Source: Shigella phage Sf20. Taken from it: DNA of 64,000 bases. Numbering within the stretch: position 1 is the first letter of the stretch; every line of letters starts with the position of its first letter. Of the stretch, positions 1 through 45,255 are shown one piece after another. Location: sequence record MF327006; one strand, given 5' to 3'. Position numbers and translations under genes: made by a program. The notes under the pieces are model-generated. The model did no database searches. It had not been told where the DNA came from and was given only the letters and a program-made list of their open reading frames with translations.

Positions 1-675
1 ACGCAGCCATTGCAGAGTATCTTCTTCGCAAACATCCTCACGCCCTGAGCATGTAATGATACGATAACCATTATCACGATACAGTTTAAGCATTTCGATC
101 ACTTGCGGACGCGGTTTATCTTCTTTGACCTTTGTCCAGTCAAACGGATGACGACCGCCCTTATCCGCTAATGTCCCATCAATATCAAAGATCACCGCTT
201 TCGGTAGCATGGTATTCGGTTTGTATACTTCTTGACCCATATATTCCTGCATCAGATAAAATTGGTTACGCAAATGAGAAAGTGGAATTGCTTTCTCGCC
301 GCGATAGAAATTACGTTTCTTTAGTGTCTCAAACGGTTCATTGAACACTTGTTCAGTATACACCGCGTTAAATTCTTTTGCAAGTTCTTTGTAGAATACA
401 CGATGTTTTTCTTTCAGGTTGGTATCAGAGATAATGAGACTCAATCCGCGTGATAGAGTCTCACGAGCAATCATTCTCTGAATAGACTCTACCAGCTTTT
501 CTTTTTCCTTAGTATACTTGTATTTCAAAAGTGAGTCAACACCAAACAACATAAGACGAAGATCATCACGATTCACATTACGATAATTACTAAACCGTTT
601 ACATGTTTCCATAGCCCATGTAGTTTTACCGGACCCAGAACAACCAACGGTTAAAATCACTTCACATTTCGGCAT
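1..675 (-). CDS. pseT: polynucleotide 5'-kinase/3'-phosphatase, N-terminal ~225 aa (gene runs past window start)
   Basis: Hand-translated minus strand: MPKCEVILTVGCSGSGKTTW... (P-loop kinase) then ...AVIFDIDGTLADKGG (HAD DxDGT motif), T4 Pnk-like; ATG at 673-675 overlaps upstream stop (TAATG). Confidence 0.85.
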   Translation of the reverse strand, partial: MPKCEVILTVGCSGSGKTTWAMETCKRFSNYRNVNRDDLRLMLFGVDSLLKYKYTKEKEKLVESIQRMIARETLSRGLSLIISDTNLKEKHRVFYKELAKEFNAVYTEQVFNEPFETLKKRNFYRGEKAIPLSHLRNQFYLMQEYMGQEVYKPNTMLPKAVIFDIDGTLADKGGRHPFDWTKVKEDKPRPQVIEMLKLYRDNGYRIITCSGREDVCEEDTLQWLR

Positions 676-1127
676 TATTTCTCCTTCGGTTTGCACCGTT
701 CCTCATTAAGTTCTTTGCGATAATAACACATGATCAACTTACTTTCAAGTGTATATCTCTTGATATCCGCAAGCCAGACTCTGAATTTTTGGGAGTCCTC
801 CCACGACATAGAAACTCTAGGTTTACCGTCTATTGTATCCACTTTCAGGTCAATGTCAACTTTTTCTATTGGTGCTGGTAGTGGTGGATGTAATTTCGGT
901 TCCTGTGAATAATGGTCCATTGTACACGAAGAAAGAGCAAATACAATAGGCACAGCGAAGACATGGATTATGGCGGTCTGAAAATTCTTATGTGCTTTCT
1001 TAAACAACCAGTGTATCACGAAAATTGAAAACACCATAAGGATAATAATGCTTGCACCTATCCCCAGATAATCAACCAGATTAAAATTGCTTATCTGCTC
1101 TTGCGTAGGCAATATTTCTATGCTCAT
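675..1127 (-). CDS. putative o-spanin-like membrane/lipoprotein
   Basis: ORF track; SD AAAGGAGG; hydrophobic segments, lipobox-like FALSSC, Pro-rich region PPLPAP; position next to pseT as T4 pseT.2/pseT.3 spanins. Confidence 0.4.
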   Translation of the reverse strand: MSIEILPTQEQISNFNLVDYLGIGASIIILMVFSIFVIHWLFKKAHKNFQTAIIHVFAVPIVFALSSCTMDHYSQEPKLHPPLPAPIEKVDIDLKVDTIDGKPRVSMSWEDSQKFRVWLADIKRYTLESKLIMCYYRKELNEERCKPKEK

Positions 1128-1447
1128 TTAGTAGCCTCCTTTAATTCTTCGGTAAACTCCTTAAATGAATCATTAAGCTGTTTCTCTACCAACTTGGGTT
1201 TTTGTGCTACTACATATCCTCGTGTAGCGTCTTTCATTGCTTTGTTTTGTTCTTCTGCAAACTTAGTTCTTATTCCGTACATCTCCTTTTGTAGTGAGTC
1301 TACAACCTTCATCTTTTCATCTGTCTTTTTCTTATACTCTGTAAATTCCTGATTCAGTCGATCTACCTCCTTTTTATTTTCCCACCACATATTGCCACCT
1401 ACCCCCAGCAACACAGATATGATAACAATGTATATCAGCTTTGACAT
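1124..1447 (-). CDS. putative i-spanin-like protein (N-terminal TM helix + charged coiled-coil-like periplasmic region)
   Basis: ORF track ORF trimmed to ATG at 1445-1447 (MSKLIYIVIISVLLGVGG...); stop overlaps next start (ATGA). Confidence 0.4.
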   Translation of the reverse strand: MSKLIYIVIISVLLGVGGNMWWENKKEVDRLNQEFTEYKKKTDEKMKVVDSLQKEMYGIRTKFAEEQNKAMKDATRGYVVAQKPKLVEKQLNDSFKEFTEELKEATK

Positions 1448-1457
1448 ATTACCCCCA

Positions 1458-1485
1458 ACGACAAAAGGCGGGGAACTAGCCCCGC
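1458..1485 (-). terminator. candidate intrinsic terminator downstream of rnlA
   Basis: Minus-sense hairpin GCGGGG-CUAGUU-CCCCGC followed by CUUUUGU. Confidence 0.35.
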
Positions 1486-1491
1486 TTATTA

Positions 1492-2661
1492 TTACCAATC
1501 AATCTTATCAGCCGGAATCAGTTTCTTATAATTCCGTAGATAGTAAGTTTTCATTGAAGCCAGAATACGGTCATAATCAAGACCATCAAATGCAATCATC
1601 AGACACATGAAAATATATGCTTGTGCATCACCGTGTTTACGTGATTCGATAGTCGCATTTGATGCATATGTCTTTCTGTCTTCTCCCGCGTGTGCGTTAT
1701 AAAATTCTGTTGCTGTCGTGAAGGCATTGCGAAGAATAGACCTGAATGCTTCCTCGAATAGCTCGATTCGTTCCAGTGCTTCCGGTTCGCCTTCATATGC
1801 AGCACGCAAATCATCGGTTTCGCTTTCTACGACATAGTAGATCAGGTTATTAGGAAACATCGATGTGTTTTTAATGTTATGCACACCAATATACCATTCA
1901 CTCTTCACTTTGAACAGTTGACCGTCTTTAGTGCGTGCAACAATTCCTTCGATACCTTCTGCGGTCCGAACTTCATCAAGAATATTGCTAAAACGCGCTG
2001 AATCAACCTGTAGCGCATTTACCAGATGAGGACGTAGGATTGCGTCAGCAAATAGCATTTGATGCGGTACGTACTCTCCTGTGACGTTATGGCGTACATT
2101 CAGAAGTGTTAGCGACGGTTCAGAATATTCTACAACAATTCGGTTGCTGGGTGCTGTATATTCAAAGTTGAAAGTATAATCAGACCCAATATCAGCAATC
2201 TTAGCGCGTAGATCCGCATACTTCTCTGAATACAGAAGACCGTTTGCTCTCTCTGCCTGGCTTGAGTACAAGGCCGCTTTAGACTTCAACTGAACATAGC
2301 CGTTATCAATGTATGTGCTTACTAGACTACCGTCCATTTTGTCCATGACCATTTCCACATCTTCCGGCTTAAAGCGAGCGCGATCATTCTCACCCAAATT
2401 AAAAAACTTCTCCATAGGACGAGATGCGATGCGGACCGGACGACCTTTATCGTCAATTTCAAACATGATCCCGCGACACTCTAACGCATCTGGTTTATTC
2501 CACATTTCAGGTTTGCTCAAGTACAGATAGCTAAAAATGCGCATACGGGTTTGCATCGCCGTAATTTCATCTTTGTAATAGAACGTATCAGATCCGTCAC
2601 ATAGTGCCATCAGATTTTTGAACAATGCTAAAACTTTTTTGTTGTTTTCTTTTGTTGACAT
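1492..2661 (-). CDS. rnlA: RNA ligase 1
   Basis: 389 aa; NLMALC...RIFSYLY...RPVRIASRPMEKFFNL...FNFEYTAPSNRIV... strongly T4 gp63-like; ATG at 2659-2661. Confidence 0.9.
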   Translation of the reverse strand: MSTKENNKKVLALFKNLMALCDGSDTFYYKDEITAMQTRMRIFSYLYLSKPEMWNKPDALECRGIMFEIDDKGRPVRIASRPMEKFFNLGENDRARFKPEDVEMVMDKMDGSLVSTYIDNGYVQLKSKAALYSSQAERANGLLYSEKYADLRAKIADIGSDYTFNFEYTAPSNRIVVEYSEPSLTLLNVRHNVTGEYVPHQMLFADAILRPHLVNALQVDSARFSNILDEVRTAEGIEGIVARTKDGQLFKVKSEWYIGVHNIKNTSMFPNNLIYYVVESETDDLRAAYEGEPEALERIELFEEAFRSILRNAFTTATEFYNAHAGEDRKTYASNATIESRKHGDAQAYIFMCLMIAFDGLDYDRILASMKTYYLRNYKKLIPADKIDW

Positions 2662-3058
2662 AATTTGTGTTCCATTCTGGTTTAAATTTGGTGATCAAAA
2701 CAGGTTCTTCGATATCGGCAGTGCTTATAATATCTTTACCCGTTGGATTCTCAATATATAACTCAAAGCACTGGCGGTAATAGAATGTTACTGTCTTACC
2801 TTCCTCTAGCGCCTTATGAATATTCTTACTCTTGCGAGTATCCGCTGTTGGTGTTTGTCTGTTAATGCTAGTCCGGTAATAATTGATCCGCTTTCTGAGA
2901 TTGACAGTCTGACCAATATATACCAGTTCATCATCAACAACAATAGCGTAAAGAACATTTAAACGGTTCTTCTGAGGCGGCAGAATCACATCACCATCTT
3001 TACACTCTAAACATGAATATTTAACGAATCCATAGTTTTCTATTAGCTCATTAATCAT
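2597..3058 (-). CDS. denA: endonuclease II (GIY-YIG family)
   Basis: YGFVKYSCLE...NVLYAIVVDDELVYIGQTVNLRKRINYYRT matches T4 EndoII GIY-YIG core; SD GAGGAAAGG; 3' end overlaps rnlA start by ~65 nt. Confidence 0.8.
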   Translation of the reverse strand: MINELIENYGFVKYSCLECKDGDVILPPQKNRLNVLYAIVVDDELVYIGQTVNLRKRINYYRTSINRQTPTADTRKSKNIHKALEEGKTVTFYYRQCFELYIENPTGKDIISTADIEEPVLITKFKPEWNTNYVNKRKQQKSFSIVQKSDGTM

Positions 3059-3108
3059 TATCCTTTCCTCACGTCACAACAAAGGCGGGATTTCTCCCGC
3101 CCACCTTA

Positions 3109-3507
3109 TTAACTTTCCAGAATATCGCGAGCTTCGTTACGATCCTTGATGATTTTCAAGACAAATTCCAGTTTTTCTTTGTTCAGCGTTCCATTTTCCA
3201 TTGCTTCTTTGACGGTAAACACTCCGCCACCTTGCCCGTATACAGTGACAGTGATTTCACCTAACATCGTGGTATGAAAACCGCCAATTTTCGGTGATTC
3301 GAAAGAAACAATTACCTCGCGAACAGTATTACCGTCGTTGATTTCTGAGAGGGTAATGTCGTTTTTGTAGGCGGTTGCTTTAACCATACGGATCAGCATA
3401 GTCTGATCTGGGGAGATGGTCATTTTGTCCATTGCATGTTGCAATGCAGCGTAACCGAAAACTTTAACGAAGTCCAGAACGTCTTTGCGAGTTTGAAATT
3501 TAATCAT
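3109..3507 (-). CDS. hypothetical protein
   Basis: ORF track 132 aa; SD AAGGAG; preceded by promoter+stem-loop cassette. Confidence 0.5.
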   Translation of the reverse strand: MIKFQTRKDVLDFVKVFGYAALQHAMDKMTISPDQTMLIRMVKATAYKNDITLSEINDGNTVREVIVSFESPKIGGFHTTMLGEITVTVYGQGGGVFTVKEAMENGTLNKEKLEFVLKIIKDRNEARDILES

Positions 3508-3540
3508 CTTGATACTCCTTAGTTGTTTTGGTATGGGAGT

Positions 3541-3569
3541 ATCTTACTACTCCCGTGATATGCTGTCAA
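3541..3569 (-). promoter_or_regulatory. sigma70-type early promoter with stem-loop (PeSL-like)
   Basis: Minus sense TTGACA-N17-TAAGAT; -10 lies in hairpin GGGAGTA...TACTCCC. Confidence 0.55.
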
Positions 3570-3577
3570 CTGCTTTT

Positions 3578-3727
3578 TTATGCAACCGCAAACATCAACA
3601 TTTGAACATTCTTGGCTGTCTGGCTTTCAAAGTTCTGACATTCTTTGATAATGTCCTCTACTTTCTCGCCGGAGATCTCCGCGTAAGTTTCGATTGCCAT
3701 TTTCAGTACCGCGTCAAAGTTGTTCAT
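3578..3727 (-). CDS. small hypothetical protein (~49 aa, below ORF-track cutoff)
   Basis: Hand-translated MNNFDAVLKMAIETYAEISGEKVEDIIKECQNFESQTAKNVQMLMFAVA; SD AAGGAG; flanked by promoter cassettes. Confidence 0.35.
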   Translation of the reverse strand: MNNFDAVLKMAIETYAEISGEKVEDIIKECQNFESQTAKNVQMLMFAVA

Positions 3728-3765
3728 TTGATTCTCCTTAAAGTGTATTTCGTTTCGATGGGGGT

Positions 3766-3794
3766 ATATTACTACCCCCGTTTCATGCTGTCAA
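3766..3794 (-). promoter_or_regulatory. sigma70-type early promoter with stem-loop (PeSL-like)
   Basis: Minus sense TTGACA-N17-TAATAT; hairpin GGGGGTAGTAATATACCCC. Confidence 0.55.
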
Positions 3795-4013
3795 CTACTT
3801 TTTAATGACAAGTTCGAATTTTGCTACCTTGCGTCCTCGTTTATTGAAAGCAACCCACGGACGGTTTTCAATGTAGAACAATTCTTCACCAATAATGAAT
3901 ACTGGCTGATTGTAAAGGCGACCCATCAGGTCACGCTGGCGAATGGTAGTAGATTCGTATACTTCGCCTACTACAAAGTGCTTGCTGATAGAGTCGGTGC
4001 AAGTAAATTTCAT
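3795..4013 (-). CDS. hypothetical protein
   Basis: ORF track 72 aa; SD AAGGAG; own promoter cassette. Confidence 0.45.
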   Translation of the reverse strand: MKFTCTDSISKHFVVGEVYESTTIRQRDLMGRLYNQPVFIIGEELFYIENRPWVAFNKRGRKVAKFELVIKK

Positions 4014-4046
4014 TTTGATTCTCCTTTGTTTCGTTTCGATGGGGGT

Positions 4047-4075
4047 ATATTACTACCCCCGTTATTCAGTGTCAA
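4047..4075 (-). promoter_or_regulatory. sigma70-type early promoter with stem-loop (PeSL-like)
   Basis: Minus sense TTGACA-N17-TAATAT; near-identical copy of the 3766-3794 element. Confidence 0.55.
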
Positions 4076-4082
4076 CTACTTT

Positions 4083-4301
4083 TTACTTGTTGTATTCATT
4101 CCACCATTGGGTTAGCTTATCAATTATTTTTGTGTTTCTATCCAACTTCTCCCACCGTTTTCTAGGGTTTATCAACCGGAATAGGTAAGGTGTACTTGTT
4201 AAGTGAACTCGGTCAATGTAGTGATTGATGTACTGCTTTTCGATTCTAAGTTTCATCTTTTTACGATGAAAATATGCAATGACTTGTTCTTCTGTTTCCA
4301 T
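4083..4301 (-). CDS. hypothetical protein
   Basis: ORF track 72 aa; own promoter. Confidence 0.45.
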   Translation of the reverse strand: METEEQVIAYFHRKKMKLRIEKQYINHYIDRVHLTSTPYLFRLINPRKRWEKLDRNTKIIDKLTQWWNEYNK

Positions 4302-4325
4302 ATGTTCCTCCGTTTCGATGTGCGT

Positions 4326-4354
4326 ATTATGCTATGGTAAGATCAGATTGTCAA
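4326..4354 (-). promoter_or_regulatory. sigma70-type early promoter
   Basis: Minus sense TTGACA-N17-CATAAT. Confidence 0.5.
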
Positions 4355-4363
4355 CACCCAATA

Positions 4364-4392
4364 ACAAAAAAAGTCGCCACTATGGGCGACTT
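4364..4392 (-). terminator. intrinsic terminator downstream of the HAD-like gene
   Basis: Minus-sense hairpin AAGUCGCC-CAUAGU-GGCGACUU followed by UUUUUUGUUAUU. Confidence 0.55.
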
Positions 4393-4402
4393 TGAACAAA
4401 CA

Positions 4403-4879
4403 TTAATCATGACCGTGATTTGCAATATCCGCTCGCGTCTTATCTTTGTGATTTCCTACGTCAAAGACACGATAACCATTTTCACGCAAAACTTTAATCA
4501 CTTCTGGGTTATCCTCAAAGACTCCGACAACTTCATCTTTATCAAAGGATTTAATTACCTCTAATTTGATGTGATAGTCTTTACGGGAATCGGTACGGCC
4601 TCTCATAAAGATTTTATCAAAACACACCCCGTTAGAAATCAACCAATCAATTGTTTCCATGTAAGCATGTGAACTTCGTCCGGTGAGGATGTAAATCAAA
4701 TGCCCGTTGTCGGAAAGAGCATTAATAACACGAATTACATCGTAAATGGGGGAATCTCCCCCACATGCCTTGTTATATTCGATCCATGACTCGACTTTAT
4801 CAAGATTTTCGGTTGGCATCTTTGCTAGTCGATGTGTTGGATCTGTGATTGTAAAATCTAAATCGACAAAATATATCAT
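4403..4879 (-). CDS. HAD-superfamily phosphatase-like protein (possible nucleotidase)
   Basis: FVDLDFT (DxDxT), YILTGRS, GVFEDNP motifs; start overlaps nrdB stop (ATGA). Confidence 0.5.
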   Translation of the reverse strand: MIYFVDLDFTITDPTHRLAKMPTENLDKVESWIEYNKACGGDSPIYDVIRVINALSDNGHLIYILTGRSSHAYMETIDWLISNGVCFDKIFMRGRTDSRKDYHIKLEVIKSFDKDEVVGVFEDNPEVIKVLRENGYRVFDVGNHKDKTRADIANHGHD

Positions 4880-6036
4880 AGATATTTCCCGAATCGGTTG
4901 TAGTCATCGTCTGTTAAATCGGTATTAACCTGAGATACCAGATACATAATCTCTACTTCCTGCGCTGCATTCTGTACTTCGTCAGAGTTCAACCATTTAC
5001 GCATCCACGGTAACGGATGACGACGAACACTAAACGGGCTTTTCAGTCCGGCAGCACGCATACGGGAATCTGCCAGGTATTCTACATAGGTTTTCAGAAT
5101 TTCCGGTGACAGGTTAGGAATTGCCCCCATTGCGAATAGGTGGTCTACCCATTCTTTTTCTTGCTCGACAACATCCAGAAAGATTTTCGTTGCTTCGCCT
5201 TCAAGTTCTTCCGCAATCTGTTTCCACTCATCACCATCAACCCCCGTTTGCCATTGACGAATAATGTATTGTGTGCCTTTTAAGTGAAGTTGTTCATCAC
5301 GCGCAATAAATTTCATGATCTTCGCGTTACCTTCCAGTAAACCACGTTCGGCAAAGCTGAAAGTACATGCAAAGGACACATAAAAACGAATTGCTTCCAG
5401 TGCATTGACGCAGTGTGCACACAGATAAATCGAAGCCATCAGATCTCGTTTTGTATCTTCAAAAAATCTTCTTGCATCATCTAATGCTGTCTGGTCGTCT
5501 CGTTCTTCCCAATAGCGGAGATCTTCTTTTGCATTCTCATACTTACGAATCCAATAAAGAACATCATCATAATATTTCCCGATAGATTCCGCTCGCTTCA
5601 TGATAGCAGGGTTATCGATGATCTGGTCGAACTCACTAGCCGGATCAATGAAACAGTTACGCATAATGTGTGTATAGCTTCGGCTATGAATCGTTTCGCT
5701 GAATGTCCATGTTTGCAACCATGTATCGAGAGTTGGATCAGATACAATTGGACCAAATGCTGCGGACGGTGCGCGACCTTGAATAGAATCAAGTAATGTC
5801 TGATACTTCAAGTTTTCAGTAAAGAAACGCTTTTCAACGTCACCCATATTAAGATATTGAATGCGGTCGGTTGCAAGTGAAATTTCTTCTGGACGCCAGA
5901 AAAATGACAATTGCTTTTCGATCAGTTCTTCAAATACTTGATGACGCTGAATATCATAGCGAGCGATACCCAACCCACTACCCAGAAACATTGGTTCGTT
6001 CATAATATCAACATGTTCGCGGTTAAATACGCTCAT
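4876..6036 (-). CDS. nrdB: ribonucleotide reductase beta subunit
   Basis: 386 aa, class Ia R2-like, uninterrupted (no intron); SD GAGGTG. Confidence 0.9.
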   Translation of the reverse strand: MSVFNREHVDIMNEPMFLGSGLGIARYDIQRHQVFEELIEKQLSFFWRPEEISLATDRIQYLNMGDVEKRFFTENLKYQTLLDSIQGRAPSAAFGPIVSDPTLDTWLQTWTFSETIHSRSYTHIMRNCFIDPASEFDQIIDNPAIMKRAESIGKYYDDVLYWIRKYENAKEDLRYWEERDDQTALDDARRFFEDTKRDLMASIYLCAHCVNALEAIRFYVSFACTFSFAERGLLEGNAKIMKFIARDEQLHLKGTQYIIRQWQTGVDGDEWKQIAEELEGEATKIFLDVVEQEKEWVDHLFAMGAIPNLSPEILKTYVEYLADSRMRAAGLKSPFSVRRHPLPWMRKWLNSDEVQNAAQEVEIMYLVSQVNTDLTDDDYNRFGKYL

Positions 6037-6051
6037 TAATTCACCTCACTA

Positions 6052-6219
6052 TCACTTTTTAACACAAAAGAACTTAGTATTTCTGTTTATTTCGTTATCC
6101 TGTTGCAATTCCTGCACGGCTTCAAAACAGCTTTGATGTGATGAAAACTCCACGCTGGTAACAGTTCCTTTATTATATGATCCTACGCTAACGGAAAGCA
6201 ATAACCATAATGTAGCCAT
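6052..6219 (-). CDS. small hypothetical protein (55 aa), paralog of the next gene
   Basis: Hand-translated MATLWLLLSVSVGSYNKGTVTSVEFSSHQSCFEAVQELQQDNEINRNTKFFCVKK; coupled start (TAATG). Confidence 0.35.
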   Translation of the reverse strand: MATLWLLLSVSVGSYNKGTVTSVEFSSHQSCFEAVQELQQDNEINRNTKFFCVKK

Positions 6220-6392
6220 TAGTTCACCTTTTGTTTTTCAACGCAATATAGATTCATAAAGCGTTTATTGTCTTCGCGGATAATCTCGCGAGCTTTAACG
6301 CAATCCTGCTTTGTTGCAAACTCAATGATTGACATATTTCCGTAATTATACATTGAATTGCTTATTGCAATCAATAACCATACAGTAGCCAT
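6219..6392 (-). CDS. small hypothetical protein (57 aa), paralog of the previous gene
   Basis: Hand-translated MATVWLLIAISNSMYNYGNMSIIEFATKQDCVKAREIIREDNKRFMNLYCVEKQKVN; coupled start. Confidence 0.35.
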   Translation of the reverse strand: MATVWLLIAISNSMYNYGNMSIIEFATKQDCVKAREIIREDNKRFMNLYCVEKQKVN

Positions 6393-6559
6393 TATCCTAC
6401 AACCTCAAAACATTTATCATCGGGAAGAATAACCCATTCTACGCCGTATTCATCCTCAACGTAGTAGCAAGTCCCATCATATCGAGCCTCATATACATTA
6501 CCGACAACAAAGCTATCAGCTAGCTCAAAATCTACAGCAACACATTTTAATTTGGTCAT
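6392..6559 (-). CDS. small hypothetical protein
   Basis: ORF track ORF trimmed to ATG at 6557-6559 with SD GAGGA (track start lies inside the promoter). Confidence 0.4.
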   Translation of the reverse strand: MTKLKCVAVDFELADSFVVGNVYEARYDGTCYYVEDEYGVEWVILPDDKCFEVVG

Positions 6560-6590
6560 AATAAAATCCTCACTTGTTTTTGATGGTTGT

Positions 6591-6619
6591 ATTATAGCGG
6601 GGATTTCTCCCCGCGTCAA
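6591..6619 (-). promoter_or_regulatory. sigma70-type early promoter with spacer stem-loop
   Basis: Minus sense TTGACG-N17-TATAAT; spacer forms GCGGGGA-GAAA-TCCCCGC. Confidence 0.55.
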
Positions 6620-6627
6620 CACTTATT

Positions 6628-8871
6628 TTACAGCTTGCAAGATGAGCACTCGCTAGCGTCTTCCGTACCATCTGCACCGTCGCGAACGTTCGCATAATAC
6701 AGGGTTTTCAGACCGTAATATTGAGCAAACAACATATCATCTAACACATCAGCAATATCGACTTTACCAGTCTTATAAGTGCTTGGATCGTATGATGTAT
6801 TGGAACTAATCGCCTGATCCACAAACTTCTGCATGATCGCTGCCAGTGTCAGATAGGGCTTGTTACCTTTCTTGATCAGTGTCCAAAGCAGGTCAATAAC
6901 ATCAGCATTATTCTCTACGTTCGGAATAACCTGATTAAATTGCCCTTCTTTCGATCCTTTAACCGATACAATCCCGCGAGGCGGTTCAATACCGTTTGTG
7001 CTGTTAGATACCTGAGAAGACGACTCACAAGGCATCAGAGCCGAAAGCGTACTATTACGAATGCCATATTTTTTCAGGTCTTCGCGCAGTTCTTCCCAAT
7101 CCATCTCATACACAGGATCAACCAGTTCATCTACTGTCTTTTTGTACCAGTCGATAGGCAGTTCACCGCGTCCATAACGTGTTTCGTGCATCAGTTCGCA
7201 AGCACCCTTCTCTTTAGCCAGTTGCACACTAGCCTTAATCAGAGCATATTGCAAGCGTTCAAACGTTTTATGCGTAAACTCGTTAGCGTCTTCATATGTG
7301 AAGAAATTATCCGCTAGATATGACGCAAAGTTAGTCACACCAACACCCAGAGAGCGACGTTTTTTGGCTGTCAGAGCTTGTTCTACAGGATAATCCTGAT
7401 AATCTAACAGGTTGTCAAGTGCACGCACCATAACCATAGCAATGCGTTCTACTTCTTCCATGTTTTCGATATCGAAATTACCTAAAACATATGCTGCCAA
7501 AGTACATAGGCTAATTTCTGAATCATCACGACCCATCGGTTTTGTAGGCAGAGCAATTTCACAACACAGGTTAGATTGTTTAATCGGTGCTACATTACGA
7601 ATAAACGCCCCGTGATTGTTCATGTTGTCTGTGAACGTTGGGTAGATTCGACCAGTGTTAAAACGTTCAATTGCCACCGCTAAAAACAGGTCTTCGGCTT
7701 TAACACGAGTTTTACGAACACTCGGATCTTTTTCCAGTTTTTCGTAAAGCTGGCGGAAACCTTCCTCATCTCGGAAGTATAGATCCCACAACAAGCCACC
7801 TGCAATATCTGGACTAAACAGAGTAATGTAATCCCGTTTAAGGAATCGCTCTACCATCAGGTTATTAATCTGTACGCCGTAGTCAAGATGGCGAATGCGG
7901 TTATCTTCCACGCCCTTATTGTTCTTTAACACAATCAGACTTTCAAACTCTAAATGCCACATTGGGTAATAGAGTGTCGCTGCCCCGCCACGAATACCGC
8001 CTTGTGAGCATGACTTAACGGCAGTCTGAAAATGTTTCCAGAATGGGATAACGCCAGTATGACGAACTTCACCATGCCCGATCTTAGATCCTTCCGCGCG
8101 AATCATGCCAGCGTTGATACCGATACCAGCACGCTTGCTAATATACTTAATGATTGCATTTGCGGTTTCATTAATACCCTGCAATGAGTCATCACTTTCA
8201 ATCACCACACACGAACTAAATTGGCGTGTTGGAGTACGCACACCCGCCATAATCGGAGTAGGCAGAGAGATTTGCTTATTCGCAACAGCATTATAAAAAT
8301 CAATCACATGTTCAAGTCGATTTTCTGTCTCTTCTTGATGCAAGCACATACCGATCAGCATATACGCAAATTGCGGTGTTTCAATGATTTTCTTAGTGCT
8401 GCGATCCTGAACAAGATATTTCTCTTTTAACTGCATCGCACCAGCATAGGTCATTTTAAAATCAAGTTTATGGTCGATGAATTTCTCCAGATATTCCACT
8501 TCTTCACGGGAATACTTTTGCAGAATTTCGCGATCATATTTTCCGGTTGCAATATTACGCTCAATATGGCTGTAAAAATCAATCGGTTGGAATTGACCGT
8601 ATACTGATTTGCGAAGCGCGAACATTGCAAGGTTACTTGCTACATATTGATAATCGGGTGTTTCTACAGTGATGTTATCTGCGGCGACCTTAATCAATAC
8701 TTTCTGGATATCATTGGTAGACATACCTTCTGTCAGAAGTGGTTCAACCATATCAAACAATTCATATGGATCAACGTTATGACCTTCGGCTGCCGCTTCC
8801 AGAATTTTCATCACTTTTTCTTTTTCAAACGGAACAGTCAGACCGGAAGACTTAACAACATTTTTAATCAT
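6628..8871 (-). CDS. nrdA: ribonucleotide reductase alpha subunit
   Basis: 747 aa; ATP-cone N-terminus, C-terminal CSSCKL-type tail; SD GAGGT. Confidence 0.95.
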   Translation of the reverse strand: MIKNVVKSSGLTVPFEKEKVMKILEAAAEGHNVDPYELFDMVEPLLTEGMSTNDIQKVLIKVAADNITVETPDYQYVASNLAMFALRKSVYGQFQPIDFYSHIERNIATGKYDREILQKYSREEVEYLEKFIDHKLDFKMTYAGAMQLKEKYLVQDRSTKKIIETPQFAYMLIGMCLHQEETENRLEHVIDFYNAVANKQISLPTPIMAGVRTPTRQFSSCVVIESDDSLQGINETANAIIKYISKRAGIGINAGMIRAEGSKIGHGEVRHTGVIPFWKHFQTAVKSCSQGGIRGGAATLYYPMWHLEFESLIVLKNNKGVEDNRIRHLDYGVQINNLMVERFLKRDYITLFSPDIAGGLLWDLYFRDEEGFRQLYEKLEKDPSVRKTRVKAEDLFLAVAIERFNTGRIYPTFTDNMNNHGAFIRNVAPIKQSNLCCEIALPTKPMGRDDSEISLCTLAAYVLGNFDIENMEEVERIAMVMVRALDNLLDYQDYPVEQALTAKKRRSLGVGVTNFASYLADNFFTYEDANEFTHKTFERLQYALIKASVQLAKEKGACELMHETRYGRGELPIDWYKKTVDELVDPVYEMDWEELREDLKKYGIRNSTLSALMPCESSSQVSNSTNGIEPPRGIVSVKGSKEGQFNQVIPNVENNADVIDLLWTLIKKGNKPYLTLAAIMQKFVDQAISSNTSYDPSTYKTGKVDIADVLDDMLFAQYYGLKTLYYANVRDGADGTEDASECSSCKL

Positions 8872-11447: not shown

Positions 11448-11475
11448 ATTATACACTATTGCGTTACGCTGTCAA
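11448..11475 (-). promoter_or_regulatory. sigma70-type early promoter
   Basis: Minus sense TTGACA-N16-TATAAT. Confidence 0.55.
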
Positions 11476-12273
11476 CTCTTTTTCAAAAGATTTTACGATA
11501 TACATTAAATTTCTAATTTCGGACGGTGGGATTGTCTCTGTCCACCCGTCCGGCATAACTTTTTGCGATACGTGGCGTGTTTTATTACTAAGTTTTTGTC
11601 GAACAATACCCTCTAATTTTAGGGGTATGTTTCCATCTTTAGTTGTTAACGTATGGAATATAAAGTGACGAACGGAAGACACGCTGGATTGCTGTTTCAT
11701 CCTTTCCTCGGCTTTTTTGTTAGTGATTCCGAACTTATACCCGACAATACAACCCCAATTATCAACCAGTTTTTGTATATAAAAGGTTCCTGGTTTTCTT
11801 TTATCATAACCTCCTTTTTGAGTGGGACATTTCGGACACTGCATATCATCTAAAGATGCGACATATTTGCCATGAACGCAGCAATCCATACTTAGATTCT
11901 TTTCTCTTGCATTAATATACCCATTAATAAATCCATTGGATTTTACTTTTTCATTATGAGAACAAAATTCATCAATTCGTATATTTGCTGATATAACATT
12001 TTTTCTTCTCATTCGTTCCATCCAACATTCTTGACAACCACCTCCCCCATTTTTAAGTATATCGATAGTGGTTAATTTTTGCTTGTGGTTTGGATTTAAT
12101 CCACAAGCAATTTTAATTTTAGATCGTACACCAGACCACTCATAGAATCCCAAATATATCATATCTCCGCTTTTTATTTTTGGCGAATTTAATGCTTCAT
12201 TTTCAATCTCAATTGGAGATTTTGAATTATAGTAATGGATATATTCTATATCTTTAGCAAATCTGGTGTTCAT
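11464..12273 (-). CDS. Cys-rich protein with possible C-terminal GIY-YIG-like (T5orf172-like) fold
   Basis: ORF trimmed to ATG 12271-12273 with SD GGAGGA; CQEC, CCVHG, CPKCP clusters; C-terminal FYIQKL...VGYKFGIT...ERMKQ. Confidence 0.45.
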   Translation of the reverse strand: MNTRFAKDIEYIHYYNSKSPIEIENEALNSPKIKSGDMIYLGFYEWSGVRSKIKIACGLNPNHKQKLTTIDILKNGGGGCQECWMERMRRKNVISANIRIDEFCSHNEKVKSNGFINGYINAREKNLSMDCCVHGKYVASLDDMQCPKCPTQKGGYDKRKPGTFYIQKLVDNWGCIVGYKFGITNKKAEERMKQQSSVSSVRHFIFHTLTTKDGNIPLKLEGIVRQKLSNKTRHVSQKVMPDGWTETIPPSEIRNLMYIVKSFEKELTA

Positions 12274-12300: not shown

Positions 12301-12328
12301 ATTATACATTATCTCGGATCAGTGTCAA
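12301..12328 (-). promoter_or_regulatory. sigma70-type early promoter
   Basis: Minus sense TTGACA-N16-TATAAT. Confidence 0.55.
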
Positions 12329-16457: not shown

Positions 16458-19400
16458 ATGGCAGATTTTTCTCAACATTTCAAGGCCACATTTGGCTTTG
16501 ACGCTGGTAATGAAAAGGTCGTCAATGTAGCATTGGCTGATAAGAATGTCAACACCGATGCGGTCAACGTTGAATTTTTCAATTACCATAATGGTATTAC
16601 TCAGTATGACACAACTCGCGGTTATGATCAATACGGAACTACAATCTATCAAAACCGTCCGTATTATGCAAAAGAAGATATCACAAAGCCAGCAGGTGAT
16701 TTTGACCCGACTAAATGGCAAGCACTGCGCACGGACCCACGTTGGGATTATATTGCAGCAACTTCCGGTGATACTCCTTTAAAGTCTGGTGATTATATCG
16801 CAGCAGATGGTCAATTTGCAAACTTGACTTTCTCTATGCCAACTAAACCAGCAGAGGGAGACACTATAACAGTAAAAGATATCGGTGGCAAGTGTGGTGT
16901 TAACGAATTATCGTTCTTGAGTTCAGGACATGAGTTTTACCATAACGGTAATGTGTATAACCGAAAATGGTATTGCACTACCCCGTATGCAATGAACTAT
17001 TTCATCTTTGTTCGTAATCGTTGGCATGTTTATCAGACGGGAACAGAGCCGCGCGGTGTGTACGCACAGCCAGCGATTGATGCTATTCAAATGCAGAATG
17101 GTGATCAGGTATTTCGTCGTAGTTCGTTGGGTAATATTACCTTAGTGCTTCCTAAGTTTGCCAACAATGGCGACATGATCCAGACTACAGACCTTGACGG
17201 ATTAACCGCAACCAACCACGTTACGGTTAAAGTTCATGAGCACGCAGAAGAACAATCAATTGGCACGTCCGGTCTAAAAGAGATTATCGGTAAGCGTAGC
17301 GGTCATGGTGTATTCATCTTTGACAAGACGGAAAACTTATGGCGTTTGTGGGATGGTGATCAGTCTGTTCGTCTTAAACCGATCATCGATGACACTCGCT
17401 TGCAACCTAATAGCTATGTTGCTGTATTTGGTGATCGTGATGTTACTCTGACGCTGCCGACCAATGTCGAGCCGGGTGATCGTATTCAAGTTTCTATGCA
17501 GTATATGCACGGAAACCAGAATTGCCGTATTATCACCGCCACAGAGGATACAAAAATCCTTATGCCGAAAAACATGGTTCAGTTTCCGAAGCGTAGCGAG
17601 TACCCATTCAACGGGACCGACACATGGAAGGAAGTGTCTGAATTGTCGTTCAATGCGGCTAGTGATTATGTACCTTATCTGGAGTTCTCTTATTCAGAAG
17701 GTGATGATGGTAAGAAATACTGGTTGGTGGCACATGCTCACCCGATTGTAGAACGAGTAGATCCGACTCGTAAAGATCGTGTTGGTGTAATTGCACTGGC
17801 TACCCAGGATGAAACAAACAAAAACCATGAAGAGAATCCTAGCGACGAAGTTGCGGTAACACCAAAAATGCTGGCTAATAAAACCGCCAACGAAACTCGA
17901 CGCGGTATTGCTCGCATTGCGACTCAAGCGGAAACGCATCAAGATACTGGTTCCAACTTCCTGGATGATGTTATCGTTACGCCTAAAAAGTTAAATGACT
18001 GTGTTGCTACCGAAGCCCGTCGTGGCGTGATGGAAATTGCAACCCAGCACGAAACCAATGAAGGTTTAGACGATACCCGCGCTATTACTCCTAAGAAATT
18101 AGAAGAACGTCGCGCTTCCGAAGATCTCGCTGGTATTGCTGAAATTGTTCAGGCTGGCGGTAGTGCTGCCGCTCGACGTGGCGAAGCTGGTACAGGGATC
18201 TATAACATCAACGACCATGTTAAAATTGTTACGCCACAAAACATCAACGAAGTCAAGGCGACCGAAACTTCCCGTGGTGTTGGCTATCTGGCAACTGACG
18301 CGGAAGTGCAAGGGGCTACAGAATCAACCCCGCAAGATGCTTTACTAATCACGACTCGCACGCTAACGAAACGTACTGCTACCGAATCGCGCACTGGTAT
18401 CGCTGAAATTGCAACTCAGGAAGAAACAAACTTAGGTCAAAGTGATAGCCATATCATCACGCCTAAAAAGCTGCATACTCGCCGCGCAACGGAAACTTTA
18501 CATGGTTTAGCAGAAATTGCAACTCAACCGGAATTTGACGCAGGTCTTGACGATGCTCGCATTTCTACCCCATTGAAGATTAAAACCTTCTTTGAGAATG
18601 CACAGCGTTTGAAAGTAGATCCGACTCAGGGGCTTAACCTTACTGGTGATTTGTGGCAAGGTATCATGATCAGCGGTCTGGATGCAACCGAAGACACAAA
18701 AGGTGTCGCTAAAGTTGCTACTACTCAGCTTACGGATGCTGGTCAAGATGATACTACAATCATCACGCCTAAAAAGCTGCAAGGCAAAAAGGCAACCGAA
18801 GGTAAAGAAGGTATTATCCGAGTTGGTACTCAAGCCGAAACCGTGGCTGGTGCACTGGCTAATGTAGCAATTTCTCCGAAGAACTTCAAATATGTTGTTC
18901 AGACAGAGGATACATGGAAAGCAACCGAATCGCGTCGTGGCTTCTTGAAAGTTGCTACTCAGGAAAACTGTTTTGTTGGTGATAATCTGCAAGGTTCTAC
19001 TCAAGAACTAGGAAACTACCAGCATGACGGAATTGCTGTTACCCCGAAAGGATTAAACTACGCACTTGCTAATTTCTTACCTAAGATGGCAACCGCTCAG
19101 AATAGTTTGAAATTGGGTAACGTAGAGGCCGCTAAATGGGCGCGTAGAGACATTGACCAGACCATAGAGAGCAATTACACGTTTAATAAAAAAGTTAACG
19201 TGAAGGGCGATTTAGAGTGCTTAAAATCAGGTTCCTTTGAAACTCTGTCTGTGACTAAGAACTCGACCGATGTTCCGAGTAATGGTCATCTGGTGTTGGG
19301 TGAGCGTGGAGTTGACGGTCACACCGGAATTACTCTGCATGGCACAACCGCATCGGAAGGCATGAAAAACTCTTGGTCGATTATCGTTGGTGGTACGGGA

Positions 19401-30433: not shown

Positions 30434-30468
30434 AATATATTCCTCAGTGTTTTGTCTTGATGGGAGTA

Positions 30469-30497
30469 TCTTACTACTCCCTTAATCCGGTGTCAAC
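30469..30497 (-). promoter_or_regulatory. sigma70-type early promoter with stem-loop (PeSL-like)
   Basis: Minus sense TTGACA-N17-TAAGAT; hairpin GGGAGTAGTAAGATACTCCC. Confidence 0.55.
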
Positions 30498-30507
30498 TAC
30501 TTTTAAA

Positions 30508-30768
30508 TTATTTTCGCCATTCACCGGAAACAATAAAGTTTGTAAAGTGAACGTGGTCCGTGATAACGTCATTAAGTACCATATGCGGATATGCTTTAGT
30601 GTAATCACGTTTACGATCAGTCATCCAACCAACGAAAGTCGGTGCAAAGTACGGCACACCGTCAGATGATGCCATATTAAACCATTTATCAGCCATAAAT
30701 GCAGCCGCCCTAAGATTTTTAATTGAAGTAGTGCGACTAATTTCAAAAACTTTATCGGTAAAATTCAT
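30508..30768 (-). CDS. hypothetical protein
   Basis: ORF track 86 aa. Confidence 0.45.
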   Translation of the reverse strand: MNFTDKVFEISRTTSIKNLRAAAFMADKWFNMASSDGVPYFAPTFVGWMTDRKRDYTKAYPHMVLNDVITDHVHFTNFIVSGEWRK

Positions 30769-30980
30769 TTTAAGCCCCCCGCTCGTGCATTAATACGCAT
30801 TTTCTGCATAGCCATGATCTGGTTTACTGCTTCTTCTTTACGTTCTTGCGTGATAACGTGACCAGATTCCGTAAACTCTCCCGCAACTTCTTCTACGATC
30901 TCGCGAACTTGAGAACGTCCAAAGATGCGGTTTCCTTCGTAGCTCATAAATTCAGTCACTACTTGCTCGATAGATTTCAT
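30765..30980 (-). CDS. hypothetical protein
   Basis: ORF trimmed to ATG 30978-30980 with SD AAGGAG. Confidence 0.45.
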   Translation of the reverse strand: MKSIEQVVTEFMSYEGNRIFGRSQVREIVEEVAGEFTESGHVITQERKEEAVNQIMAMQKMRINARAGGLK

Positions 30981-31012
30981 GTGATTCTCCTTCTTTCGTT
31001 TGGTATGGGAGT

Positions 31013-31041
31013 ATAATACTACTCCCATTTCTTTACGTCAA
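31013..31041 (-). promoter_or_regulatory. sigma70-type early promoter with stem-loop (PeSL-like)
   Basis: Minus sense TTGACG-N17-TATTAT; hairpin GGGAGTAGTATTATACTCCC. Confidence 0.55.
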
Positions 31042-31044
31042 CAA

Positions 31045-31206
31045 CTATTTTAAATTATTTTCGACCTTCACCCATTCCGCGTATTCTTGCGCGGCTACTT
31101 TCGGATTTAGTCCGTCTTCGTACATTGCATCAAGTAATTCTTTGTCGGTGGGCTTATACCCTAGATAAGCCTCCACCTGATTTTTCCAAATTTTATACCA
31201 GTTCAT
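31045..31206 (-). CDS. small hypothetical protein
   Basis: ORF trimmed to ATG 31204-31206 (MNWYKIWKN...). Confidence 0.35.
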   Translation of the reverse strand: MNWYKIWKNQVEAYLGYKPTDKELLDAMYEDGLNPKVAAQEYAEWVKVENNLK

Positions 31207-31210
31207 ATTA

Positions 31211-31483
31211 TCACCAGTCAAGAGCGCGTGTCTCTGCGTCTTCCCATGCTTGATCCATAACAGCCTTGAAAACATATTCTAAAGTATCATCTTTAGAGAA
31301 TCCGAAGATTTTAGACGGAATATCTTCAATTGCTACTCCCGCAACTTCTGCATTACGCGCTTGACAATAATGCAACTCTAAGTTATCGAGATAGCGACCG
31401 CCTAATTTCTCCATATCATCCCAGCATTTCCAGTAACCTACTTTATTTGCAATTGCTAACACTTTGCTGTTTTCGTTGCTCAT
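31211..31483 (-). CDS. hypothetical protein
   Basis: ORF trimmed to ATG 31481-31483 with SD AAGGAG. Confidence 0.45.
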   Translation of the reverse strand: MSNENSKVLAIANKVGYWKCWDDMEKLGGRYLDNLELHYCQARNAEVAGVAIEDIPSKIFGFSKDDTLEYVFKAVMDQAWEDAETRALDW

Positions 31484-31514
31484 CTTTGATTCTCCTTTTG
31501 TTTGGTATGTGTGT

Positions 31515-31543
31515 ATTATGCGAGGCTGGATTCGTGAAGTCAA
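31515..31543 (-). promoter_or_regulatory. sigma70-type early promoter
   Basis: Minus sense TTGACT-N17-CATAAT. Confidence 0.5.
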
Positions 31544-31550
31544 CAACTTT

Positions 31551-31584
31551 TTAAAATAAAAAAGCCGACCACAAGGATCGGCTT
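31551..31584 (-). terminator. intrinsic terminator
   Basis: Minus-sense hairpin AAGCCGAUCC-UUGU-GGUCGGCUU followed by UUUUUAUUUU; near-identical to the plus-strand terminator at 21714-21736. Confidence 0.6.
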
Positions 31585-45222: not shown

Positions 45223-45255
45223 AATAAAAAAGCCTCCAATCTTTCGACGGGAGGC

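What the first reader, a model, noticed from the sequence alone, without database searches (positions are those of the whole stretch)
3508..4402. Array of near-identical promoter plus stem-loop cassettes, each driving a tiny gene
Four consecutive cassettes (minus-sense TTGACA-N17-TAnnAT with the -10 inside hairpins such as GGGGGTAGTAATATACCCC or GGGAGTAGTAAGATACTCCC) each precede a 49-132 aa ORF, then a terminator at 4364-4392. Similar cassettes recur at 6591, 11448, 12301, 13397, 30469, 31013, 31515, 38606, 38976, 44687, 45256, 50234, 55093 and 61912. This matches the PeSL elements described for RB49-like phages and proposed to mediate modular gene shuffling.
Basis: partly seen in the sequence, partly recalled or inferred. 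Interest (0 to 1): 0.5.

Follow-up and report, generated by a model that had tools for sequence, protein, structure and literature searches.

The report
Known PeSL promoter–hairpin cassettes, RB49-like phage
This is a run of four small early-gene expression cassettes (strong host-type promoter plus a hairpin plus a ribosome-binding site) of the already described PeSL kind in an RB49-like coliphage; it is ordinary for this phage group, and related genomes show whole genes gained, lost or swapped here with the joins inside the cassettes.

Summary
The window is a Krischvirus (RB49-like) genome, 99.3% identical to RB49 at this locus. Coordinates 3508-4402 are the four intergenic spacers and three of the genes of RB49 ORF225c-228c, on the minus strand. 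Three spacers are one cassette type: A-tract, TTGACA, N17, TAAGAT or TAATAT, with the -10 box in the loop of a G-run/C-run hairpin, then a conserved leader, GGAG and ATG. The fourth is a different subclass: a canonical terminator followed by TTGACA-N17-CATAAT. These four promoters and the two flanking terminators were predicted in RB49 in 2006. The cassette class was described and partly tested as PeSLs in 2010 and 2014. Comparison with 58 Krischvirus records shows 18 that appear to differ here by whole cassette-plus-gene units; in the five representatives aligned, every junction lies inside a cassette, at different positions. That fits homologous recombination between cassettes. One caveat: the three inner hairpins have no U-tract and are not predicted intrinsic terminators, so their "terminator" role is inferred from a test on a different PeSL. 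Novelty: already known. Interest is low.

The parts
3083..3102 (-). Canonical terminator-like hairpin GGGCGGGAGAAATCCCGCCT followed by TTGTTGTG. It closes the array after ORF225c, before denA.
   Evidence: TransTerm terminator 'denA<--RB49ORF225c' at RB49 131015-131032, which is window 3084-3101. Annotated as a terminator in GEC-3S.
3109..3507 (-). ORF225c homologue, 132 aa, an ORFan (PHROG 10173, unknown function, no Pfam match).
3508..3577 (-). Cassette c1 (PeSL 226/225). A-tract; -35 TTGACA at 3564-3569; -10 TAAGAT at 3541-3546; hairpin at 3535-3554 with the -10 in its loop and 3' arm; inferred transcription start at A3534; GGAG at 3515-3518.
   Evidence: hairpin is the centroid structure, z = -2.66. 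RB49 Pe:131514. Promoter annotated in GEC-3S.
3578..3727 (-). ORF226c homologue, 49 aa, an ORFan (PHROG 21179). Absent from the JSE/ECD7 and phiS classes of genome.
3728..3794 (-). Cassette c2 (PeSL 227/226). -35 at 3789-3794, directly abutting the TAG stop of ORF227c; -10 TAATAT at 3766-3771; hairpin GGGGGTAGTAATATACCCCC at 3760-3779; inferred start at A3759.
   Evidence: RB49 Pe:131739.
3795..4013 (-). ORF227c homologue, 72 aa, an ORFan (PHROG 14957). Absent from ELT3 and, by coverage class, AV108.
   Evidence: Variant codons: 15 synonymous, 3 nonsynonymous.
4014..4082 (-). Cassette c3 (PeSL 228/227). -35 at 4070-4075; -10 TAATAT at 4047-4052; hairpin at 4041-4060; inferred start at A4040. 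Shares a 35-nt exact block with c2.
   Evidence: RB49 Pe:132020.
4083..4301 (-). ORF228c homologue, 72 aa, an ORFan (PHROG 18672). Replaced by two unrelated 55-aa ORFs in ELT4 and E26 and, by coverage class, 011D4.
4302..4402 (-). Cassette c4 (PeSL 229/228), the subclass with the stem-loop upstream of the -35. Terminator hairpin AAAGTCGCC-CATAGT-GGCGACTTT at 4370-4393 plus a T-run; -35 TTGACA at 4349-4354; -10 CATAAT at 4326-4331; inferred start at A4319.
   Evidence: RB49 Pe:132299 and TransTerm terminator 132303-132320. GEC-3S annotates both a promoter and a terminator here.
30434..31584 (-). A second array with the same architecture. A terminator-plus-promoter cassette (hairpin 31562-31584, promoter 31515-31543) is followed by two cassettes with the -10 in the hairpin loop (31013-31041 and 30468-30496), the same sequence family as c1-c3.
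6591..6632 (-). [quoted passage not shown] In phage Delraymugoa this element is present twice, flanking an 853-bp cytosine-methyltransferase insert that the window lacks.

Best explanation
The region is a tandem array of four PeSL (promoter-early stem-loop) cassettes of an RB49-like phage. Each expresses one small, unrelated ORFan early in infection.

1. Promoter. Each cassette carries a strong host sigma-70 promoter: an A-rich UP-like tract that overlaps the end of the upstream gene, then TTGACA, N17 and a -10 box. Transcription probably starts at the A of the conserved CAT(C/A)(G/C)AAAC motif, 7 nt after the -10. It yields a short, C/A-rich, unstructured leader with a GGAG Shine-Dalgarno sequence. 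The motif is shown in the sequence; promoter activity and the start site are inferred from published RB49 work.

2. Hairpin. The G-run/C-run hairpin lies upstream of that start. It is therefore absent from the cassette's own transcript and forms only in RNA reading through from the upstream gene. It most likely attenuates read-through or marks or stabilises the 3' end of that RNA, so each gene is insulated from its neighbours. This step is inferred. The two outer hairpins (4370-4393 and 3083-3102) are canonical intrinsic terminators. The three inner ones lack a U-tract, so any termination there must be non-canonical or partial.

3. Recombination. Because the roughly 70-nt cassettes are direct repeats with 8-35-nt exact blocks, the phage's general homologous-recombination machinery can cross over between them. 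That deletes, inserts or swaps whole promoter-plus-gene modules without breaking neighbouring genes. The junctions are shown comparatively here; the enzymology and the mini-circle intermediates are inferred from Arbiol et al. 2010.
For: Identity:
- The locus is 99.3% identical to RB49 and lies between denA and ORF229c/nrdB.

Promoters:
- The extended motif occurs 11 times against 0.67 expected, all on the early-gene strand.
- 21 of 23 non-coding sense-strand TTGAC sites have a correctly spaced -10.
- All four sites are listed as RB49 early promoters (Pe:131514, 131739, 132020 and 132299). Nolan et al. 2006 state that the consensus agrees with 5'-end mapping.
- GEC-3S annotates four promoters here.
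- Arbiol et al. 2010 showed strong lacZ expression from PeSL206/205 and selection of down-mutations in the -35 or -10 of cloned PeSLs.

Hairpins:
- The hairpin is the centroid structure in all folds, at -10 to -14 kcal/mol.
- Stem sequences differ between PeSL subclasses while the hairpins persist.
- One stem pair is found as A-U, G-C and G.U in different copies.
- Every hairpin with non-Watson-Crick pairs is more stable as sense RNA than as antisense RNA.
- The stem-loop of PeSL211/210, which also lacks a U-run, reduced downstream lacZ as much as rrnB T1 did.

Cargo:
- The four ORFs are unrelated to each other.
- They fall in PHROG families of unknown function with no Pfam match.
- They evolve with 24 synonymous against 6 nonsynonymous variant codons.

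Shuffling:
- 18 of 58 Krischvirus records fall into coverage classes that differ at this locus.
- One representative of each class was aligned: JSE and phiS (ORF226c absent), ELT3 (ORF227c absent), and ELT4 and E26 (ORF228c replaced by two other ORFs).
- Every junction lies inside a cassette and at a different place: the UP/-35 region, the shared hairpin block, or the leader/Shine-Dalgarno region.
- Delraymugoa's methyltransferase insert is flanked by two copies of one PeSL.
Against: - There are no transcript data for this phage or for these four sites. The RB49 5'-mapping paper (Desplats et al. 2002) could not be read.
- The three inner hairpins have no U-tract. Neither the scan here nor TransTerm calls them terminators.
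- Fold z-scores are modest, -1.5 to -2.8.
- Covariation rests on a single pair (28 of 500 shuffles reach the observed score).
- Whole-gene indels must have intergenic ends to be viable, and in this genome almost every early intergenic spacer is a promoter cassette. Proximity of indels to PeSLs is therefore partly trivial; only junctions within shared homology, and flanking duplicate cassettes, are informative.
- Other indels in the same window are due to a homing endonuclease rather than PeSLs.
- Only one genome per architecture class was aligned; the rest are inferred from BLAST coverage and span.
Confidence: 0.87

Rival explanations
1. These are ordinary early promoters whose resemblance reflects only shared constraint on promoter, leader and ribosome-binding site. 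The indels arise by any recombination and survive simply because only intergenic breakpoints are viable. The cassettes have no role as mobile linkers, and the hairpins are incidental.
For: A related promoter core, without the hairpin, occurs in other large viral contigs. Nearly all early intergenic spacers carry such a promoter, so indel ends would fall next to them anyway. Some indels in the window are homing-endonuclease events.
Against: Junctions are not merely intergenic. They lie within blocks shared by the two parental cassettes and produce chimeric cassettes in JSE, ELT3 and phiS. The Delraymugoa insert is flanked by a duplicated PeSL. Hairpins persist with different stem sequences and one compensated pair. 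Published inverse-PCR junctions map inside PeSLs.
Confidence: 0.1
2. The inner hairpins that enclose the -10 box are not terminators. They act on read-through RNA as 3'-end stabilisers or barriers to exonucleases or RNase E, or they mark processing sites. The array would then be transcribed polycistronically as well as from each promoter, with the hairpins setting the half-lives of the segments.
For: No U-tract follows the stems (AUCGAAAC or AUACCAAA). Neither scan calls them terminators. The structures favour the sense strand. The published lacZ reduction does not distinguish termination from processing or decay.
Against: The only functional test, on PeSL211/210, whose stem-loop also lacks a U-run, gave an effect as strong as rrnB T1 and was interpreted as termination. 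There are no RNA-end data either way.
Confidence: 0.25
3. The Gn-loop-Cn inverted repeats are DNA-level sites: a cruciform or folded single strand recognised by a dedicated phage protein that targets recombination. That would make the array an integron-like cassette system. Alternatively they are operators for a dimeric regulator that shuts off early promoters.
For: The authors themselves raise this possibility. The repeat overlaps the -10 box and discriminator, where a bound protein would block RNA polymerase. Circular cassette intermediates have been reported.
Against: Junction positions are scattered over the cassette rather than falling at one fixed point (published junctions likewise). 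Stem sequences differ widely between PeSLs, which argues against a single sequence-specific binder. G.U pairs, which would be A.C mismatches on the other strand, favour a sense-strand fold over a symmetric duplex site. Arbiol et al. 2010 report that no integrase or recombinase beyond the usual T4-type recombination machinery has been identified in RB49/phi1.
Confidence: 0.05
4. The array arose by tandem duplication of one gene-plus-promoter unit, and the repeats are simply paralogous duplicates.
For: The repeat spacing is regular at 225 and 281 nt, and two of the ORFs have the same length of 72 aa.
Against: The four proteins share no detectable similarity (all BLASTP E-values above 0.06 with 2-residue words) and fall in four different PHROG families. 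Similarity stops at the cassette edges.
Confidence: 0.02

Closest known systems
PeSLs (promoter-early stem-loops) of coliphages RB49 and phi1 (Arbiol et al. 2010, Genome Biol Evol 2:140, PMC2839356; Comeau et al. 2014, PMC4122927)
   Same: The genus is the same and the locus is orthologous to RB49 ORF225c-228c. The cassettes share the AT-rich tract with the upstream stop codon, TTGACA-N17 and a -10 box, a Gn-loop-Cn stem-loop, GGAG and ATG. They sit upstream of ORFans, and gene content varies with junctions inside the elements. c1-c3 belong to the described subclass in which the stem-loop overlaps the -10. RB49 PeSL205/204 has nearly the same hairpin. c4 belongs to the subclass with the stem-loop upstream of the -35.
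   Different: Nothing essential differs. These four were not among the PeSLs tested experimentally, and RB49 and phi1 do not differ at this locus. The variation seen here, in JSE, ELT3, ELT4, E26 and phiS, comes from genomes the 2010 comparison of RB49 and phi1 did not use.
Early promoters (Pe) of T4-like phages, as catalogued by Nolan et al. 2006 (Virol J 3:30, PMC1524935)
   Same: An A-rich UP-like tract, a -35 and a -10 box, C residues at -3 to -1, and placement 5' of novel ORFs. The four sites are in the paper's RB49 list. A related promoter core occurs in other large viral contigs.
   Different: RB49-type promoters have TTGACA rather than T4's GTTTAC. The promoter catalogue does not consider the stem-loop or the recombination role.
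Rho-independent (intrinsic) terminators
   Same: The hairpins at 4370-4393 and 3083-3102 have G+C-rich stems followed by T-runs and are called terminators by two programs.
   Different: The three inner hairpins have G+C-rich 7-bp stems but no U-tract, so they fail a defining feature.
Integron gene cassettes (attC sites with an IntI integrase)
   Same: Arrays of small, unrelated, mostly unknown-function ORFs are separated by imperfect inverted repeats. Circular cassette intermediates have been reported for PeSLs. The authors of the 2010 paper draw the analogy themselves.
   Different: Arbiol et al. 2010 report that no integrase has been identified in RB49/phi1. Every cassette has its own promoter rather than sharing one Pc. 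Crossover points are dispersed across the homology rather than falling at a fixed site.
Lambdoid-phage 'morons' (Hendrix et al. 2000)
   Same: A single accessory gene is bracketed by its own promoter and terminator.
   Different: Here the genes have the same orientation as their neighbours, their G+C content equals that of the genome (0.402 against 0.407), and the conserved flanking regulatory sequences are themselves the recombination substrate.

Membership tests
PeSL (RB49/phi1 type) | Near-consensus sigma-70 promoter TTGACA-N17-TATAAT | tested here: met
   TTGACA-N17 is followed by TAAGAT, TAATAT, TAATAT and CATAAT in the four cassettes. The extended motif occurs 11 times against 0.67 expected.
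PeSL (RB49/phi1 type) | [quoted passage not shown] | tested here: met
   The tracts read AAAAAGTAG|TTGACA, with TAG being the stop of ORF227c; TAAAAAGTAGTTGACA after ORF228c; and TAAAAAAGCAGTTGACA after ORF226c.
PeSL (RB49/phi1 type) | Stable stem-loop, typically Gn-loop-Cn, in one of five positions relative to the promoter | tested here: met
   c1-c3 have 7-bp stems enclosing the -10 box, at -10.4 to -12.5 kcal/mol. c4 has a 9-bp stem upstream of the -35.
PeSL (RB49/phi1 type) | Shine-Dalgarno sequence and start codon of the downstream gene at the 3' end of the element | tested here: met
   GGAG lies 7-8 nt before ATG in all four cassettes.
PeSL (RB49/phi1 type) | Located in a hyperplastic region, immediately upstream of ORFans | tested here: met
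   The four ORFs have no Pfam match and fall in PHROG families of unknown function. Gene content at the locus differs in 18 of 58 related records, by coverage class.
PeSL (RB49/phi1 type) | Indels and replacements between related phages with crossovers inside the elements | tested here: met
   Alignment A1 shows the junctions of JSE, phiS, ELT3, ELT4 and E26 all inside cassettes. A duplicated PeSL flanks the Delraymugoa insert.
PeSL (RB49/phi1 type) | Early promoter activity in vivo | not testable with these tools
   Reporter assays are published for other PeSLs. These four are predicted early promoters, and Nolan et al. 2006 say the consensus matches 5'-end mapping.
PeSL (RB49/phi1 type) | The stem-loop attenuates or terminates upstream transcription | not testable with these tools
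   This has been published only for the PeSL211/210 stem-loop. By sequence, c4 qualifies as an intrinsic terminator and c1-c3 do not.
PeSL (RB49/phi1 type) | Formation of circular 'mini-circles' by recombination between neighbouring PeSLs | not testable with these tools
   This needs inverse PCR on infected cells. The 35-nt exact repeat, 281 nt apart, between c2 and c3 is a plausible substrate.
Intrinsic terminator | G+C-rich hairpin immediately followed by a U-tract | tested here: not met
   For c1-c3 the 3' tails are ATACCAAAA or ATCGAAACG, and neither the scan nor TransTerm calls them. The feature is met for the hairpins at 4370-4393 and 3083-3102.
Integron cassette array | Site-specific crossover at a fixed position of the repeat, catalysed by a cognate integrase | tested here: not met
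   Junctions fall in the UP/-35 region, the hairpin block or the leader/Shine-Dalgarno region in different genomes. Arbiol et al. 2010 report that no integrase has been identified in RB49/phi1; I did not search for one myself.
Moron | Base composition unlike the rest of the genome; no conserved flanking linkers | tested here: not met
   G+C is 0.402 for the array against 0.407 for the window. The flanks are conserved repeats.

The most novel reading that the evidence does not exclude
The G-run/C-run hairpins that enclose the -10 box may not be transcription terminators at all. They could be strand-specific folded signals recognised by an unidentified phage factor that targets recombination to cassette boundaries. 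The ORFan arrays of Krischviruses would then be an integron-like gene-capture system in a strictly lytic phage. My data do not exclude this, but they lean against it: crossover points are dispersed and stem sequences are heterogeneous.
Probability: 0.05. Interest if true: 0.6.

Novelty: already known. Interest (0 to 1): 0.14.

Why it matters
For annotation, it means these spacers should be labelled as early promoters or PeSLs and the tiny ORFs accepted as real early genes. It adds little new biology. The element class, its presence in RB49-type phages, the four promoters at this exact locus and the shuffling hypothesis are all published.

The modest added value is comparative. With 58 Krischvirus records available, against two in 2010, this 1.2-kb array turns out to be a clean natural example of the proposed mechanism. 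It shows three kinds of whole-module change and at least two different junctions for the loss of one gene, all inside cassette homology.

It also sharpens an open point. The commonest hairpin subclass lacks a U-tract, so its assumed terminator function still needs a direct test.

Tried and rejected
- An Rfam scan of 2900-4900 at E<=1 gave only two chance-level hits on the other strand, so no known RNA family is present.
- A generic sigma-70 scan of 1-8000 was not enriched (24 found against 21.1 expected). Only the extended cassette motif is informative.
- An IMG/VR scan used a pattern that fixes the UP/-35 region and the loop but leaves the stem free. It returned only 12 stretches. The hairpin version appears only in contigs that carry these same cassettes (one is the length of phage ECD7); seven other contigs share only the promoter core. 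This was too few sequences for a strong covariation test.
- Covariation within the subclass with the -10 in the loop rests on one variable pair out of seven, which is weak.
- Fold z-scores for single cassettes are unimpressive, -1.5 to -2.8.
- The tandem-duplication (paralogue) idea was rejected by all-against-all BLASTP.
- The moron idea was rejected on base composition.
- I could not read Desplats et al. 2002, which reports RB49 5'-end mapping, or the supplement of Arbiol et al. 2010 that lists the 51 RB49 PeSLs. That these four are on the authors' list is therefore inferred, not verified.
- My first automatic gene model wrongly preferred a spurious plus-strand ORF over the small genes. I replaced it with annotation transferred from phage Delraymugoa.
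- I did not use the large protein-homology, structure-prediction or metagenome searches. The cargo proteins are not what the finding is about.
Full report
**What the window is.** Region 3000-5000 matches 58 phage records, all Krischvirus (RB49-like T4-type coliphages). The best matches are Delraymugoa at 99.7% and RB49 at 99.3%. In RB49 coordinates the finding covers ORF225c-228c, four small hypothetical genes. They lie between denA and ORF229c, a HAD-type phosphatase related to polynucleotide kinase that sits next to nrdB. All are on the minus strand.

**The observation.** Read on the minus strand, the region is an array. It starts with a terminator hairpin (4370-4393) and a T-run. Then come a promoter and a 72-aa ORF, a promoter-hairpin cassette and a 72-aa ORF, a cassette and a 49-aa ORF, and a cassette and a 132-aa ORF. 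A second terminator-like hairpin (3083-3102) closes the array before denA.
- Cassettes c1-c3 read A-tract, TTGACA, N17, TAAGAT or TAATAT. The -10 box sits in the loop and 3' arm of GGGAGTA-GTAAGA-TACTCCC or GGGGGTA-GTAATA-TACCCCC. Then follow CAT(C/A)(G/C)AAAC, GGAG and ATG.
- c4 is a different design: a canonical terminator, then TTGACA-N17-CATAAT.
- c1-c3 are 68-77% identical to each other, and c2 and c3 share a 35-nt exact block. c4 is 45-50% identical to the others.
- Two more members of the c1-c3 family lie at 30437-30507 and 30982-31052. They sit in a second array with the same head-terminator architecture.

**Is it more than chance?**
- AGTTGACA-N17-TANNAT with at most one mismatch occurs 11 times, all on the minus strand, against 0.67 expected.
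- I transferred gene annotation from Delraymugoa. On that model, 21 of 23 sense-strand TTGAC sites not buried in coding sequence have a -10-like hexamer at 16-18 nt, against 2.1 expected.
- 20 sites have a promoter, a Shine-Dalgarno sequence and an annotated ATG, and 16 of those have a hairpin of -8 kcal/mol or better nearby.
- A loose generic promoter scan is not enriched.
Hairpins lie between the -35 and -10 (6591, 61912), around the -10 (38606, 38976), around the -35 (55093), upstream (12301, 31515) or downstream (45256). Sites 11448, 13397 and 44687 have no convincing hairpin, and 50234 has only a weak one.
- Site 50234 lies inside the 3' end of an inserted HNH homing-endonuclease gene.

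**What is already published.**
- Arbiol et al. 2010 (PMC2839356) defined PeSLs in RB49 and phi1 with exactly these parts. They described five subclasses by stem-loop position and counted about 51 per genome, mostly upstream of ORFans in hyperplastic regions. They reported promoter activity and a terminator-like effect in lacZ reporters, and inverse-PCR evidence for mini-circles formed by recombination between PeSLs.
- Comeau et al. 2014 summarise the RB49 type as a Gn-loop-Cn stem-loop with TTGACA-N17-TATAAT.
- Nolan et al. 2006 list RB49 early promoters Pe:131514, 131739, 132020 and 132299. With the offset of 127931, these correspond to window 3583, 3808, 4089 and 4368, the four cassettes.
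- The same paper lists TransTerm terminators at RB49 131015-131032 and 132303-132320, the two outer hairpins, and none at the three inner hairpins.
- The GEC-3S GenBank record annotates four promoters and two terminators at the same places.
- RB49 PeSL205/204 and 193/192 belong to the same subclass with the -10 in the loop.

**New comparative evidence at this locus.** Among the 58 records, 40 have the full four-gene array. By BLAST coverage and span, 13 fall in classes that lack ORF226c, 2 in a class that lacks ORF227c, and 3 in classes that replace ORF228c. The counts include six GenBank/RefSeq duplicate pairs. I aligned one representative of each class.
- phiS joins the end of ORF227c to cassette c1 within the shared AAAAAG-N-AGTTGACA block.
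- JSE, and ECD7-type contigs, keep the c2-type spacer, hairpin and leader and switch to the c1 sequence at the Shine-Dalgarno region. ORF226c has therefore been lost through at least two different junctions.
- ELT3 keeps the c3 spacer and switches to c2 within the 35-nt shared block.
- ELT4 and E26 carry two unrelated 55-aa ORFs instead of ORF228c. The borders lie in the leader after CATCGAAAC and in the next A-tract, and the inserted segment has its own variant hairpin.
- Elsewhere, Delraymugoa has an 853-bp methyltransferase insert flanked by two copies of the PeSL found at window 6591-6632, and an extra gene at the PeSL near 31049.
- The dispersed junction positions fit homologous recombination over short homology, not a site-specific crossover.

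**The cargo.**
- The four ORFs are unrelated to each other.
- They have no Pfam match and fall in four PHROG families of unknown function.
- Variant codons are 24 synonymous against 6 nonsynonymous, with no stop codons, across the aligned genomes. They are real genes.
- Their G+C content equals that of the genome.

**The hairpins.**
- They are the centroid structures of the cassette RNAs, although z-scores are modest.
- One stem pair occurs as A-U, G-C and G.U in different copies.
- Every PeSL hairpin in the window that contains non-Watson-Crick pairs is clearly more stable as sense RNA than as antisense RNA. That suggests a sense-strand fold.
- The inferred start is the A seven nucleotides after the -10 box, with C residues at -3 to -1 as in the RB49 logo of Nolan et al. 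2006. It lies just 3' of the stem, so the hairpin can form only in read-through RNA.
- The three inner hairpins have no U-tract. Their terminator function is an extrapolation from one tested PeSL of another subclass, whose stem-loop also lacks a U-run.

**Verdict.** The finding is already known, and interest is low. The main open question is what the hairpins without U-tracts actually do.

Noticed in passing
window 19680-20343 (+ strand, gene 34, long tail fibre proximal subunit): A perfect 332-bp tandem duplication (19680-20011 equals 20012-20343). The length is not a multiple of 3, so it frameshifts gene 34: one ORF runs 16458-20108 and the remainder 20093-20530. All 58 Krischvirus records lack the duplication. 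It may be an assembly artefact or a defective variant.
   Followed up: partly
window 50249-51025 (- strand): An inserted homing-endonuclease gene (HNH motif plus an I-TevI-type DNA-binding domain) lies between the recombination (RecA-type) gene and the head-vertex chaperone gene. It is present in only 4 of 57 related records. The promoter-like site at 50234 lies in its 3' end.
   Followed up: partly
window 6591-6632 compared with L002 6540-7560 (Delraymugoa): Delraymugoa carries an 853-bp gene annotated as a DNA methyltransferase that the window and RB49 lack. It is flanked by two copies of the PeSL GTTGACGCGGGGAGAAATCCCCGCTATAAT.
   Followed up: partly
window 11464-12270 (- strand): A 268-aa ORF with no Pfam match occupies the place of a 542-aa gene annotated as an endonuclease in Delraymugoa. 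The replaced segment begins at the start codon, just after the promoter at 12301-12328. Only the last roughly 100 nt are homologous (83% identity).
   Followed up: no
window 45232-45255 (- strand): The hairpin GCCTCC...GGAGGC followed by T6 lies downstream of the -10 box at 45256-45261. Its 3' arm contains the Shine-Dalgarno sequence of the next gene, and the predicted start falls inside its 5' arm. Read-through RNA would therefore be terminated or translationally masked, while the promoter's own transcript would not.
   Followed up: no
window 40861-40893 and 52337-52365 (- strand): Strong hairpins sit in the 5' leader downstream of near-consensus promoters (-17.6 and -21.4 kcal/mol as sense RNA, against -7.9 and -13.1 as antisense, with 4 and 2 G.U pairs). 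They may be leader RNA structures rather than PeSL stem-loops.
   Followed up: no
whole window, minus strand, coding regions: TTGAC followed by a -10-like hexamer at 16-18 nt is also over-represented inside coding sequence on the sense strand (36 of 103 sites against 9.4 expected). Of 35 such sites, 11 lie within 100 nt of the next start codon, so many promoters are probably embedded in the 3' ends of upstream genes. The rest are unexplained.
   Followed up: partly
window 42014-42071: A 58-bp segment aligns to two places in Delraymugoa, which has about 180 extra bases here (a 177-nt ORF). This is a small indel with no obvious promoter cassette at the junction.
   Followed up: no
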